In this document: positions 20,871 to 32,978 of the stretch, piece after piece
Layout of the letters: each line of letters opens with the position of its first letter
Position numbering within the stretch: position 1 is the stretch's first letter
Source of the DNA: Eledone cirrhosa
Taxonomy: Eukaryota
Assembly: GCA_964016885.1 (NCBI GenBank)
Contig: OZ024745.1
Coordinates: 25,792,001 to 25,856,000, forward strand
DNA length: 64,000 nucleotides
Reading direction: 5' to 3'
The notes under the pieces: model-generated
Told to the model about the DNA's origin: nothing
The model's database searches: none
What the model saw: the letters and a program-made list of their open reading frames with translations, nothing else
Translations under genes and position numbers: made by a program

Positions 20871-21480
20871 TGTCAGGTCACCAGTTGGTGCTACTGGTAA
20901 CATGTATTCCAGTACAACCTGTCTCATGGTCGGGTCGTTGGCGACTAAACTGGCAACCCCACCAAGGTTTCTTGGTGAGGAGGGTGACTTTGGACATCCT
21001 GCAGGACTAAAAACAAAACCTGTCAAAGGGCAAAGGAGCTCTTAAGAGTCAATGGCCATCCAAAATCACCGGGAGAGATGACCCCTTAGCCTTTGTCAAG
21101 GCAGAATTCTAGGAGAAGGAAAACTCTGATATAACACCTGCGACTCTGATGGTATCCAATGATGTTGACTTGTTCTTCTTTTTGGTAAATATCATCTTGG
21201 TTAAGAGAGTGGGACTGGCTTTGTGCAGTGCCTTTGCTCACTATAAAAGCTTCACGGCACAGGCATTGCTTTATATCTGGAGATCTCTCTGCACTTGTCG
21301 TCACATGGTACCATGGCCCAGCACTATGTGTCAATAATTGTCACAAGTGTAGTGTTTGTTCCAGAGTTTTCAAGTCGTTGGCTGGACTAAAAAGTCACAC
21401 CCGTTCGGCGCATCGGTAGGGGTTCTCCTATATGGATATAGAGTAGTGGCCGTACTCGAAAACGAGTTGGCAGCCACCAT
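20871..21480 (+). mobile_element. Non-autonomous bipartite RTE-derived element, copy 1
   Basis: RTE-type 5' UTR motif ctaggagaaggaaaactctga; C-terminal zinc finger [22 protein letters not shown]; 3' stem-loop ctcgaaaacgag; (AT)n tail. Confidence 0.85.
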
Positions 21481-24400
21481 ATATATATGTATATATATAT
21501 ATATGTATATATATATATGTATATATATATGTATATATATATATATGTATATATATATACATGTATATATATATATGTATATATATATATATGTATATAT
21601 ATATATGTATATATATATATATGTATATATATATATATGTATATATATATATATATGTATTTATATATATATGTATATATATATATGTATATATATATAT
21701 GTATATATATGTATATATATATATATGTATATATATATATGTATATATATGTATATATATATATGTATATATTTGTATATATATATATATGTATATGTAT
21801 ATATATATATGTATATATTTGTATATATATATATATGTATATATGTATATATATGTATATATATATATATGTATATATATGTATATATATATATGTATAT
21901 ATATGTATATATATATATATATATGTATATATATATATATATATATGTATATATATATATATATATGTATATATATGTATATATATATATATATGTATAT
22001 GTATATATATATATATATATATATATGTATATATATATATATGTATATATATGTATATATATATATATGTATATATATATATATGTATATATATATATAT
22101 GTATATATATATATGTATATATATATATGTATATATATATATATGTATATATATATGTATATATATATGTATATATATATGTATATATATGTATATATAT
22201 ATGTATATATATATATGTATATGTATATATATATGTATATATGTGTATATGTATATATATATGTATATATGTGTATATATATATATATGTATATGTATAT
22301 ATATATATATGTATATATGTGTATATGTATATATATATGTGTATATGTATATATATATATATATATGTATATATGTGTATATGTATATATATATATGTGT
22401 ATATGTATATATATATATATATATGTATATATGTGTATATATGTATATATATATATATATATGTATATATGTGTATATATGTATATATATATATATATAT
22501 GTATATGTATATATATGTATATATATATATATATATGTATATGAATATATATGTATATACATATATATATATATATATGTATATATATATATATATATAT
22601 ATATATATATATATACATATATATATATATATATGTATATATATATATATATATATATATATATATATATATATACATATATATACATATACATATACAC
22701 ATATATACATATATATATACATATATACATATATACATATATACATATATATATATATACATATACATATATATATATATATACATATATATATATATAC
22801 ATATATATATATATATATATATATACATATATATATATATACATATATATATATATATACATATATATATATATATACATATATATATATATATACATAT
22901 ATATATATACATATATACATATACACATATATATATATATACATATATATATATATACATATATACATATACACATATATACATATATATACATATATAT
23001 ATATACATATATACATATACACATATATACATATATATATATATACATATATATATATATACATATATATATATATATACATATATATATATATACATAT
23101 ATATATATATACATATATATATATATACATATATATATATATATACATATATATACATATATATATATATACATATATATACATATATATATATATACAT
23201 ATATATATATATACATATATATATATATACTATATATATATACATACATATGTATATATATATATATGTATATATATATATATATGTATATGTATATATA
23301 TATATGTATATATGTATATGTATATATATATGTATATGTATATATATATGTATATGTATATATATGTATATGTATATATATGTATATGTATATATATATG
23401 TATATGTATATATATATGTATATGTATATATATATGTATATATATATGTATATATGTGTATATGTGTATATATGTGTATATGTGTATATATATATATGTA
23501 TATATATGTATATGTGTATATGTATATATATGTATATATATATGTATGTATATATATGTATATATATATGTATATATATATGTATGTATATATATATATA
23601 TGTATATATATATATATGTATATATATATATGTATATATATATATATATATATGTATATGTATATATATATATATGTATATATATATATATATGTATATG
23701 TATTTATATATATATGTATATATATATATATGTATATATATATGTATATATATATATATGTATATATATATATATGTGTATATATATATATGTATATATA
23801 TATGTATATATATTTATATTAATATATATATATGTATATATATATATGTATATATATATATATGTGTATATATATATATGTATATATATATGTATATATA
23901 TTTATATGTATATATATATATGTATATATATATATGTATATATATATATATGTGTATATATATATATGTATATATATATGTATATATATTTATATGTATA
24001 TATATATATGTATATGTATATGTATATATATATATATATATATATGTATATATATATATGTATATGTATATATATATATATATATGTATATATATATATG
24101 TATATGTATATATATATATATATATGTATATGTATATGTATATGCTATATATATATATATATATATATATATGTATATATATATATATATGTATATATAT
24201 ATGTATATATATGTATATATATATGTATATATATGTATATATATATGTATATATATATGTATATATATATATATGTATATATATGTATATATATATGTAT
24301 ATATATATGTATATATATATATGTATATATATGTATATATATATGTATATATATGTATATATATATATATATATGTATATATATGTGTATATATATGTAT

Positions 24401-25391
24401 ATATATGTATATATATATATATATATGTATATATATGTATATATATGTATATATATATATATATGTATATATATATATATATGTATATATATATATATGT
24501 ATATATATATATATATATATGTATATATGTATATATATATATATATATATGTATATATATGTATATATATATATATATATGTATATATATGTATATATAT
24601 ATATGTATATATATATATATGTATATATATGTATATATATATATATATATGTATATATATATATATGTATATATATGTATATATATATATATGTATATAT
24701 ATGTATATATATATGTATATATATGTATATATATATATATATGTATATATATATATATATATATGTATATATATGTATATATGTATATATATATATATAT
24801 ATATATGTATATATATATATATATATATGTATATATATGTATATATGTATATATATATATATATATATATGTATATATATATATATATATATGTATATAT
24901 ATGTATATATGTATATATATATATATATATATATGTATATATATATATATATATATGTATATGTATATATATATATATATATATATATGTATATATATAT
25001 ATATATATATATATATGTATATATATATATATATATATATATACATGTATATATATATATATATATATATGTATATGTATATATATATATATATGTATAT
25101 GTATATATATATATATATGTATATATGTATGTATATATATATATATATATATGTATATGTATATATATATATATATGTATATATGTATGTATATATATAT
25201 GTATATATATATGTATATATATATGTATATATATGTATATATATATGTATATATATATGTATATATATATATGTATATATATATGTATATATATATGTAT
25301 ATATATATGTATATATATATGTATATATATGTATATATATATGTATATATATATGTATATATATATATATATATATATGTATATATATGTG
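21481..25391. repeat. ~3.9-kb (TA)n/TATG array with an internal inverted-polarity segment
   Basis: TATG units switch to CATA at ~22555-23250 and then back. Confidence 0.9.
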
Positions 25392-26002
25392 TGTCAGGTC
25401 ACCAGTTGGTGCTACTGGTAACATGTATTCCAGTACAACCTGTCTCATGGTCGGGTCGTTGGCGACTAAACTGGCAACCCCACCAAGGTTTCTTGGTGAG
25501 GAGGGTGACTTTGGACATCCCGCAGGACTAAAAACAAAACCTGTCAAAGGGCAAAGGAGCTCTTAAGAGTCAATGGCCATCCAAAATCACCGGGAGAGAT
25601 GACCCCTTAGCCTTTGTCAAGGCAGAATTCTAGGAGAAGGAAAACTCTGATATAACACCTGCGACTCTGATGGTATCCAATGATGTTGACTTGTTCTTCT
25701 TTTTGGTAAATATCATCTTGGTTAAGAGAGTGGGACTGTCTTTGTGCAGTGCCTTTGCTCACTATAAAAGCTTCACGGCACAGGCATTGCTTTATATCTG
25801 GAGATCTCTCTGCACTTGTCGTCACATGGTACCATGGGCCCAGCACTATGTGTCAATAATTGTCACAAGTGTAGTGTTTGTTCCAGCGTTTTCAAGTCGC
25901 TGGCTGGACTAAAAAGTCACACCCGTTCGGCGCATCGGTAGGGGTTCTCCTATATGGATATAAAGTAGTGGCCGTACTCGAAAACGAGTTGGCAGCCACC
26001 AT
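25392..26002 (+). mobile_element. Bipartite RTE-derived element, copy 2
   Basis: About 6 differences from copy 1. Confidence 0.85.
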
Positions 26003-31678: not shown

Positions 31679-32024
31679 TATATATATATATATATATATA
31701 TATATATATATATGTCAATTTTCCATTATATATATATATATATATATATGTAATGTATGTATGTATATATATGTATGTATGTATGTATGTATGTATGTAT
31801 GTATATATATGTATGTATGTATATATGTATGTATATATATATATACATACATATATATATACATACATACATATATATATACATACATATTTATATATAT
31901 ATATATATATATATATATATATATATATATATATAATGGAAAATTTGAACAGGAACAAGACAGAGAGGCAGTACAACGAATGTTTATTAATTTCACGCTC
32001 TTGAGAGTGGGGTGGTGGTGGGGA

Positions 32025-32056
32025 ACGACGTTTCGGGCATAAGCCCTTCTTCAGGT
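32025..32056 (-). ncRNA. Minimal Penelope-type hammerhead
   Basis: ac CTGAAGA a gggc ttat gccc GAAA cg TC gt; AATAAA ~37 nt downstream. Confidence 0.75.
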
Positions 32057-32925
32057 GAAGAGTTCAAAGGGTGTGTAGGGGAGTGGTGGAGAGACATATA
32101 GCTAAAAGGGGGTGGGAGGAAACGGTGCAAGGGAAATTAAAAATAAAGCATGATCAAATTAAAATTAAAATGGGGTGAAACAGGTGGTGGAAGGGTGTGG
32201 GGCGTGTAGGGGTGGTGGCGGGTGGAGTGGGGAGAGGGAGACGGGGTGTCCGAGCGGGGAGGGCTGAATGTGGTGTGTGTGTGTAGGTGTACGTGTGTGT
32301 GTGTATGTGAAAGCAAGGGTTGGGAGAAGAACGGGGTTGCATGTTCAGGAAGAGGTGTATGTATATATATATAATATATATATATATATATATATATATA
32401 TATACATACATACATACATACATACATACATACATACATATATATACATACATACATACACACACATACATGCATACATATATATATATACATACATACA
32501 TATATATATATATACATACATACATACACACACATACATGCATACATATATATATATATATACATACATATATATATACATATACATACATATATATATA
32601 TATATACATACATATATACATATACATACATATATATATATATATATATACATACATACATATATATATATATATATACATACATATATACATATACATA
32701 CATATATATATATATATATACATATATATATATATGTATACATACATATATATATATATATACATACATATATATATATACATATATATATACATACATA
32801 TATATATATACATACATATATATATATATACATACATATATATATATACATATATATATATATATATACATACATATATATATATACATATATATATATA
32901 TATATATACATACATATATATATAC

Positions 32926-32978
32926 ATGGTGGTGGCTGCCAACTCGTTTTCGAGTATGGCCACTACTTTATATCCATA
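32926..32978 (-). mobile_element. 3'-terminal fragment of the bipartite RTE element
   Basis: ggtggctgccaactcgttttcgagtatggccactac embedded in a TA/CATA array. Confidence 0.85.

What the first reader, a model, noticed from the sequence alone, without database searches (positions are those of the whole stretch)
20871..32978. Young 610-bp bipartite RTE-derived element clustered in TA-rich arrays
Seen: three full copies (20871+, 25392+, 31069-) and one 3' stub within 12 kb; copies 1 and 2 differ at about 6 sites; every 3' end runs into (TA)n/TATG. The 5' part has RTE 5'-UTR-like motifs, the 3' part encodes the RTE C-terminal C2H2-like finger plus a terminal stem-loop, and no endonuclease or RT is present. 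Established: RTE LINEs give rise to bipartite non-autonomous derivatives and have microsatellite tails. Inference: a recently active, TA-targeting or TA-generating SINE-like family that lacks a tRNA head.
Basis: partly seen in the sequence, partly recalled or inferred. Interest (0 to 1): 0.72.

Follow-up and report, generated by a model that had tools for sequence, protein, structure and literature searches.

The report
Orphaned RTE derivative targeting TA/TATG microsatellites
This 610-base repeat is a shortened, non-coding version of a 4-kb jumping gene found in the same genome; it has more than 20,000 copies that sit mostly inside TA/TATG repeats on a fixed strand, likely because the enzyme that moves it cuts there, and its youngest copies may have been moved by a related element's enzyme, as no intact parent was found.

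Summary
Confirmed, and the parent was found. The element is the first ~432 nt (5' UTR) and last ~181 nt of a 4.06-kb single-ORF RTE-type LINE (endonuclease, RT, three C2H2 fingers), with ~3.45 kb deleted. Its 3' 22-mer occurs 27,006 times genome-wide; a parent-specific 20-mer occurs 110 times. TA/TATG arrays lie 5' of 34 of 52 consecutive 3' ends versus 533 of 9,995 random sites, are as long upstream as downstream, match in type on both sides and are strand-polarised. So the family targets existing arrays rather than building them. Targeting is shared by the parent and a tRNA-SINE. Window copies 1 and 2 belong to a very young subfamily (56 hits, median 0.16% diverged), all non-autonomous; no intact parent ORF was seen, but a cousin RTE has open ORFs. 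Bipartite RTE derivatives are a known kind, and this scan already noted TATG targeting by RTEs elsewhere in this genome.

The parts
20871..21478 (+). Copy 1, full length (608 bp), youngest subfamily
20871..21302 (+). Copy 1, 5' part = nt 1-433 of the parent RTE (5' UTR; the parent's first in-frame Met follows about 50 nt further on)
   Evidence: 97.5% to parent L272; parent ORF layout
21300..21478 (+). Copy 1, 3' part = last ~181 nt of the parent (end of the second finger, linker, third C2H2 finger, stop, 59-nt 3' UTR); 2-3 nt overlap at the junction
   Evidence: 93.4% to parent L272 nt 3883-4063
21324..21419 (+). Residual coding stretch with the terminal C2H2 finger and its stop codon; no start context shown, likely a passive remnant
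   Evidence: Pfam zf-C2H2 on the parent's C-terminus
21446..21477 (+). Terminal stem-loop, conserved in shape in the cousin RTE and a sister family; likely the RNA signal bound by the RTE protein
21479..28462 (.). 7-kb (TA)n/TATG array, target context of copies 1 and 2
   Evidence: TRF period 2, 3474 units
25392..26000 (+). Copy 2, full length (609 bp), youngest subfamily; junction at 25821-25823
31071..31678 (-). Copy 3, full length, older bulk type, TA array at its 5' side (31678-31935)
32931..32977 (-). 5'-truncated 3' stub inside a TA/TACA array (32358-33268); short element or parent, not assignable

Best explanation
The element is an internally deleted, non-coding derivative of a 4.06-kb RTE-type LINE of the same genome, spread to tens of thousands of copies that lie mostly in pre-existing TA/TATG microsatellites on a fixed strand, likely by target-primed reverse transcription with an RTE protein supplied in trans. 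Shown: shared 5' UTR and 3' end, one fixed junction, 5'-truncated copies with intact 3' ends, target-site duplications where flanks are informative, and a symmetric, strand-polarised microsatellite context. Inferred: transcription from the retained 5' UTR; binding of the 3' stem-loop by the RTE protein; a nick in an alternating TA/CATA strand, with priming helped by a few bases of ATAT/ATGT complementarity. Each insertion leaves target repeats on both sides, so later copies stack beside earlier ones in the same orientation. The bulk wave likely used the parent's protein (equal divergence). The source of protein for the youngest subfamily is open.
For: Parent: 6 full-length copies among 20 stretches fetched (7 of them picked for long upstream match) match element 1-432 at 89.6-97.9% and 430-610 at 91.7-95.6%; lengths 3,956-4,062 in the four measured; Pfam Exo_endo_phos, RVT_1, zf-C2H2. 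Copy number: 27,006 exact 3' 22-mers, reversed-pattern control 0; 110 parent-specific 20-mers; 3 copies in 400 kb of random DNA. Retrotransposition: of 52 consecutive 3' ends, 21 are full length and 31 start further in; 43 cross the junction, 8 are unassignable, 1 is the parent. 11 of 136 copies had an informative duplication (11-60 nt), 8 of them starting right after the element's last base. Targeting: 5' flank microsatellite in 34 of 52 versus 533 of 9,995 random sites, and in 46 of 55 youngest copies. Run length upstream 46 versus downstream 43, p 0.93, n 51. Flank type correlated across the insertion, rho 0.64, n 131 of 140. TATG outnumbers CATA upstream in 35 of 51 copies, the reverse in 4. 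127 of 136 copies are followed by ATGT or ATAT. 11 of 11 neighbour pairs within 1 kb are on the same strand, 0.5 pairs expected. Age: 2.8% in both parent (n 28) and bulk element (n 19) over the shared 181 nt.
Against: The microsatellite test was defined after seeing flanks. The 52 copies come from the first 12 Mb of one contig, while the random control spans 14 contigs. 18 of 52 fail the test. Most duplications are unreadable inside repeats, several informative ones are long (29-60 nt) or end 14-18 nt short of the 5' junction, so a short element-encoded ATGT tail is not excluded. The preference is not specific: a tRNA-SINE shows 13 of 25 scored (30 loci fetched), the parent 23 of 43 (2 rows chained into neighbouring short copies), the sister family 7 of 9 scored (12 fetched). 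RTE-clade placement rests on architecture, recalled motifs and partial primer matches, not on a tree with named references. No promoter or ribozyme was identified. No empty sites were compared between individuals.
Confidence: 0.85

Rival explanations
1. The element generates its TA/TATG arrays: RT slippage on a repeat tail seeds and lengthens microsatellites, as proposed for lepidopteran RTEs.
For: RTE 3' ends are described as progenitors of microsatellites (PMC2887409, abstract). 127 of 136 copies are followed by ATGT/ATAT. A few copies have repeats downstream only (for example L223). 3 of 11 informative duplications have 3-8 nt before them.
Against: Arrays are equally long upstream, also at the breakpoints of 5'-truncated copies (22 of 31). 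The repeat type downstream follows the type upstream. 8 of 11 duplications begin with no tail. The youngest copies already have upstream arrays (46 of 55).
Confidence: 0.08
2. Insertion is unselective and the pattern arises afterwards, by retention in neutral repeat-rich DNA, by segmental or tandem duplication, or by assembly artefact.
For: Copies cluster. Two of only 56 youngest hits lie 4.5 kb apart in this window. Two hits on one contig gave one distinct flank pair.
Against: Copies lie on many contigs with different flanks and many different 5' truncation points. Strand polarity and base-level adjacency are not predicted by retention. Independent public runs assemble the same 610-nt unit. 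Copies 1 and 2 have different 5' flanks and three private differences each.
Confidence: 0.05
3. For the youngest subfamily only: it was moved not by a cousin but by an intact parent copy that is missing from this assembly (other haplotype, collapsed repeat, other individuals) or that was lost recently.
For: The element's 3' end is 93-95% identical to the parent but only 82-87% over ~33 nt to the cousin. One assembly shows one haplotype. Only the best 150 candidates were scored.
Against: None of 142 parent-like hits has an open frame above 721 codons, where a full ORF needs about 1,180. None of 50 parent stretches carries the three young 3' markers tested, and none of 55 distinct young copies is a parent. 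The least diverged parent copy is at 1.1% (n 20), against 0.16% for the young subfamily.
Confidence: 0.5

Closest known systems
Bipartite non-autonomous RTE LINEs (Bov-A, RTESINE1/2, WALLSI3, MAR4_MD, RTE-N2_Lch; Kojima 2018, PMC5786205, parts 1-3 of 5 read; hagfish RTE derivatives, PMC7245038, passages)
   Same: 5' end plus 3' end of an RTE joined by internal deletion, no small-RNA head, no ORF, target-site duplications.
   Different: Longer (610 nt; RTE-N2_Lch is 214 + 70 nt), keeps a whole C2H2 finger coding remnant, and is strongly biased to TA/TATG arrays; the hagfish RTE-tailed SINE1-1_EBu is reported to lack strong target preference.
RTE-clade LINEs with the Tn-TA insertion signature (PMC6007223 and PMC13295347, passages)
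   Same: Cleavage near TA, duplications starting with A, link between 3' repeat and target.
   Different: Those papers describe a weak signature; the 2026 paper says Bov-B copies are rarely flanked by targets resembling their 3' repeats and names only Tx1 and R1 as APE clades with site-specific members. Here about two thirds of copies sit in arrays, on a fixed strand.
RTE-2_OV of Octopus vulgaris (PMC9115989, passages and section 27)
   Same: Single ORF with endonuclease, RT and C2H2 finger. Three of nine primers tested fall collinearly on the parent at 15-16 of 20 letters.
   Different: No primer matches fully (best 16 of 20 in the parent, 17 of 20 in the cousin), so neither is that family; three fingers here, one reported there.
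Microsatellite-targeting elements of other classes: MuTAnT (PMC4486113, search listing only); Dong, Waldo, Mino (recalled)
   Same: Insert into simple repeats, which likely serve as safe sites.
   Different: DNA transposons, or LINEs of other clades (R4, R1); not RTE derivatives.

Membership tests
Bipartite non-autonomous RTE derivative | 5' part equals the 5' end/UTR of an autonomous LINE | tested here: met
   Element 1-432 matches parent 1-433 at 97%
Bipartite non-autonomous RTE derivative | 3' part equals the extreme 3' end of the same LINE | tested here: met
   Element 430-610 matches parent 3883-4063 at 93-95%
Bipartite non-autonomous RTE derivative | Internal coding region deleted, one junction shared by many copies | tested here: met
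   ~3.45 kb missing; same junction with point variants in 120 sampled copies
Bipartite non-autonomous RTE derivative | Amplified as its own unit by retrotransposition (dispersed, 5' truncation, duplications) | tested here: met
RTE clade (parent) | Single ORF with APE endonuclease then RT, no ORF1, no RNase H | tested here: met
   One reading frame from a Met ~50 nt after the shared 5' part to the last finger, with two internal stops in L285; Pfam PF03372 and PF00078, no RNase H listed (87 codons between the two scanned ORF pieces were not scanned)
RTE clade (parent) | RT groups with named RTE elements in a tree | tested here: inconclusive
   No named RTE among the 120 listed homologues; PDB hits are L1 and R2 only; partial collinear primer matches to RTE-2_OV; no tree built; motif resemblance is recalled
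tRNA/5S/7SL-headed SINE | Small-RNA head with Pol III A and B boxes | tested here: not met
   No A or B box match in the element, both in the control SINE (box patterns recalled); no Rfam hit at gathering score; ARAGORN found nothing in the window, control SINE included
RTE with HDV-like 5' ribozyme | Self-cleaving ribozyme fold at the 5' end | tested here: inconclusive
   No Rfam ribozyme hit; 5' fold z -1.7; 1 of 30 pairs covaries in 7 sequences
Strictly site-specific LINE (R1/Tx1/R4 type) | Nearly all copies at one defined target | tested here: inconclusive
   34 of 52 and 46 of 55 pass the array test, 127 of 136 are followed by ATGT/ATAT: a strong preference with two repeat types, not one strict site
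Currently active element | Insertion polymorphism or transcripts | not testable with these tools
   One assembly; no raw reads laid; low divergence only

The most novel reading that the evidence does not exclude
An RTE lineage has evolved strand-specific targeting of TA/TATG microsatellites, and its 610-nt deletion derivative out-competed its parent about 200-fold, outlived it, and switched to the protein of a cousin RTE only 61% identical, which recognises the same 3' stem-loop: a non-autonomous LINE surviving its parent's extinction by changing host enzyme.
Probability: 0.35. Interest if true: 0.65.

Novelty: new variant of a known kind. Interest (0 to 1): 0.4.

Why it matters
The architecture is textbook, so that part is ordinary. 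Two points carry interest. First, RTE LINEs are described as weakly selective, yet this lineage lands in alternating TA/TATG DNA about 12 times more often than chance and on a fixed strand. This explains stacked, same-orientation arrays and gives a natural RTE endonuclease with a simple repeat target that can be tested in vitro. Second, parent, derivative, junction and a 0.16%-diverged subfamily are all identified in one genome with no intact parent in view, which makes cross-family mobilisation directly testable. The young copies are also candidate polymorphic markers, and the family warns against designing microsatellite markers next to it.

Tried and rejected
One search used wrong coordinates in L022 and is uninformative; one search is the intended search. 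A homologue search with the 56-residue finger peptide found nothing. The 20 loci picked for unusual open-frame length held no parent. I first guessed the junction near nt 400 and read the preceding bases as a broken finger; two pattern searches built on that guess found no parent (one irrelevant hit, 62 hits, 20 fetched: 19 ordinary copies and one chimera). The guess was wrong: the junction is at ~430 and those bases are 5' UTR. No RNA holder listed. Ribozyme and tRNA-head searches were negative or weak. The tRNA-SINE meant as a negative control is itself TA-enriched. No paper describing this family or TA-array targeting by RTEs turned up in eight library searches; Repbase, Dfam, the O. vulgaris library on Zenodo and all paper supplements were not seen and may hold it.
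Full report
Observation. The three full copies and the stub are in the window at 20871-21478 (+), 25392-26000 (+), 31071-31678 (-) and about 32931-32977 (-). Copies 1 and 2 differ at 6 sites; copy 3 differs from copy 2 at 30 of 615 columns. Copies 1 and 2 are tied to a 7-kb TA array, 21479-28462. The 3' part encodes a C2H2-like peptide ending in a stop. No endonuclease or RT of the parent lies in the window. The host genome is 3.0 Gb in 1,796 contigs. That it is an octopus-like animal is my inference from recalled repeat types and from unchecked notes of this scan; it was not tested.

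Copy number. The element is dispersed: the 40 best of 2,395 candidates lie on many contigs at 98-100%. An exact 22-mer of the 3' end occurs 27,006 times, the reversed control 0 times. At the 2.8% divergence measured for that end this suggests roughly 50,000 3' ends (my estimate). Forty random 10-kb stretches held 3 copies, about 22,000 if scaled. A public run shows a summed depth near one million over the whole unit. Locus-confined duplication and misassembly are thus excluded.

Parent. One of 52 consecutive 3' ends continued into different, coding sequence. A 20-mer from it has 110 exact matches; these loci encode the end of an RT and three C2H2 fingers and finish in the element's own 3' end. 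Of 20 longer stretches fetched (7 chosen because they matched far upstream, 13 taken in list order), 6 are full length: element 1-432 matches their 5' end and element 430-610 their 3' end, total 3,956-4,062 nt in the four measured. Pfam finds Exo_endo_phos, RVT_1 and zf-C2H2; homologues have the same single-ORF layout but no RTE name. The element is therefore the parent with ~3.45 kb deleted, joined over 2-3 shared bases, with one junction in 120 sampled copies. This is the bipartite non-autonomous RTE type described in PMC5786205. It has no Pol III boxes. An older sister family (528 nt, ~90% between copies, 6,481 candidates) shares the 5' part at 71%, and a cousin RTE is 61% identical in protein with 82-87% identity over the last ~33 nt. 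All three end in a similar stem-loop with different letters in the stems.

Mode of movement. Of the 52 consecutive 3' ends, 21 are full length and 31 begin further in; 43 cross the junction, 8 cannot be assigned and 1 is the parent. Informative duplications were readable in 11 of 136 copies, 11-60 nt long. This is the footprint of target-primed reverse transcription; the enzymatic steps are inferred.

Targeting versus generating. A TA/TG array lies directly 5' of 34 of 52 copies against 533 of 9,995 random positions, including 22 of 31 copies that start further in, whose 5' junction cannot be a tail. Runs are as long upstream as downstream (medians 46 and 43, n 51, p 0.93). The repeat type on one side predicts the other (rho 0.64, n 131 of 140). 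8 of 11 duplications start directly after the last base. The context is polarised: TATG exceeds CATA upstream in 35 of 51 copies and the reverse in 4; the random stretches held 3,526 TATG and 2,176 CATA on their plus strands; 11 of 11 pairs within 1 kb share a strand. Limits: the test was set after viewing flanks, the sample is from the first 12 Mb of one contig, 18 of 52 fail it, and a tail of a few bases is not excluded. The preference is shared by the parent (23 of 43), the sister family (7 of 9 scored) and a tRNA-SINE (13 of 25 scored), so it belongs to the machinery and not to this element alone. Published RTE signatures are weaker (PMC6007223, PMC13295347, passages). Notes of this scan, unchecked, report the same TATG preference and polarity for RTE elements elsewhere in this genome; I reached the reading before opening them, and they are not independent support.

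Age and the source of enzyme. Full-length copies of the consecutive sample are 1.8% from the column majority (n 19). Over the shared 181 nt, bulk element and parent are both at 2.8%, so the main wave coincided with the parent. Window copies 1 and 2 carry markers of a younger subfamily: 56 exact hits, median 0.16% (n 20). All 55 distinct copies cross the junction, none is a parent, and 46 have a 5' array. None of 50 parent stretches has the three 3' markers tested. Among 142 parent-like protein hits the longest open frame is 721 codons, the five longest fetched are truncated or internally deleted, and the least diverged parent copy is at 1.1% (n 20). The cousin has copies at 0.1% (n 38, chosen by best similarity and so biased young) and open frames of 1,135-1,206 codons, one running from Met to the last finger. 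Either the cousin moved the youngest copies or an intact parent is missing from this assembly; I rate these about even. With the rate quoted for O. bimaculoides in PMC13282606 (0.0036 per million years), 2.2% would be about 6 million years and 0.16% under half a million; the rate is borrowed and rough.

Comparison with known elements. Works like, and is a member of, the bipartite non-autonomous RTE derivatives. RTE-clade placement of the parent is by architecture and is not confirmed by a tree. It is not RTE-2_OV of PMC9115989: nine of its twelve element primers were tested and none matches fully. Eight library searches found no description of this family, but Repbase, Dfam, the Zenodo library of PMC13282606 and supplements were not seen. 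Papers seen: PMC5786205 parts 1-3 of 5; PMC13282606 parts 1-2 of 3; PMC9115989 passages and section 27; PMC7245038, PMC8967140, PMC6007223, PMC13295347 passages; PMC2887409 abstract and outline; PMC4486113 listing only.

Verdict. Real, correctly read, and mostly of a known kind. The variant features are strand-specific microsatellite targeting in an RTE lineage and a very young subfamily without a visible intact parent. Interest 0.40.

Noticed in passing
window 29196-29415: tRNA-headed SINE with Pol III A and B boxes and a terminal hairpin; near-identical copies genome-wide, 13 of 25 scored have a TA array at the 5' side.
   Followed up: partly
L022 (second element, directly behind a copy of the studied family); L031-L042: Older 528-nt sister non-autonomous family, ~90% between copies, 71% to the parent's 5' UTR, similar 3' stem-loop; its own parent was not sought.
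   Followed up: partly
L093-L108, L326, L327: Cousin RTE of about 4.4 kb with open frames of 1,135-1,206 codons and a microsatellite-rich 3' UTR; 7 of the 16 loci L093-L108 also hold a copy of the studied element, several in the RTE's 3' TATG run.
   Followed up: partly
L004 ~2400-2730, L047: Short elements carrying the cousin's 5' UTR and 3' end, likely a second bipartite family derived from the cousin.
   Followed up: no
window 20823-20872: Copy 1 is preceded by a 5' piece of another dispersed repeat (about 90% to L157, L160, L188, L209) and joins it at an ATGT; the rest of that repeat is not downstream.
   Followed up: partly
G000:C5:25699897 and window copies 1, 2: Three of the 56 youngest hits lie within 120 kb; local source copy, hot target or chance is unresolved.
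   Followed up: no
L006, L226: Head-to-tail stacks of 4 copies, full and truncated, separated by short TATG runs.
   Followed up: partly
L153 (G000:C1:341449164): Single chimera: the element's 5' part joined to the RT C-terminal region of a different RTE-like LINE.
   Followed up: no
window 53382-54092 (+): 237-codon open frame resembling the C-terminal part of an L1/Tx1-like LINE also seen in L044 and L052 (label recalled).
   Followed up: no
window 1250-1439, 8515-8707, 15522-15720, 41145-41441, 47968-48094, 62300-62641: Another dispersed ~190-nt repeat with at least six copies at 80-90% in the window.
   Followed up: no
window 17125-17324: A 200-N assembly gap beside TA arrays, 3.5 kb upstream of copy 1.
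   Followed up: no
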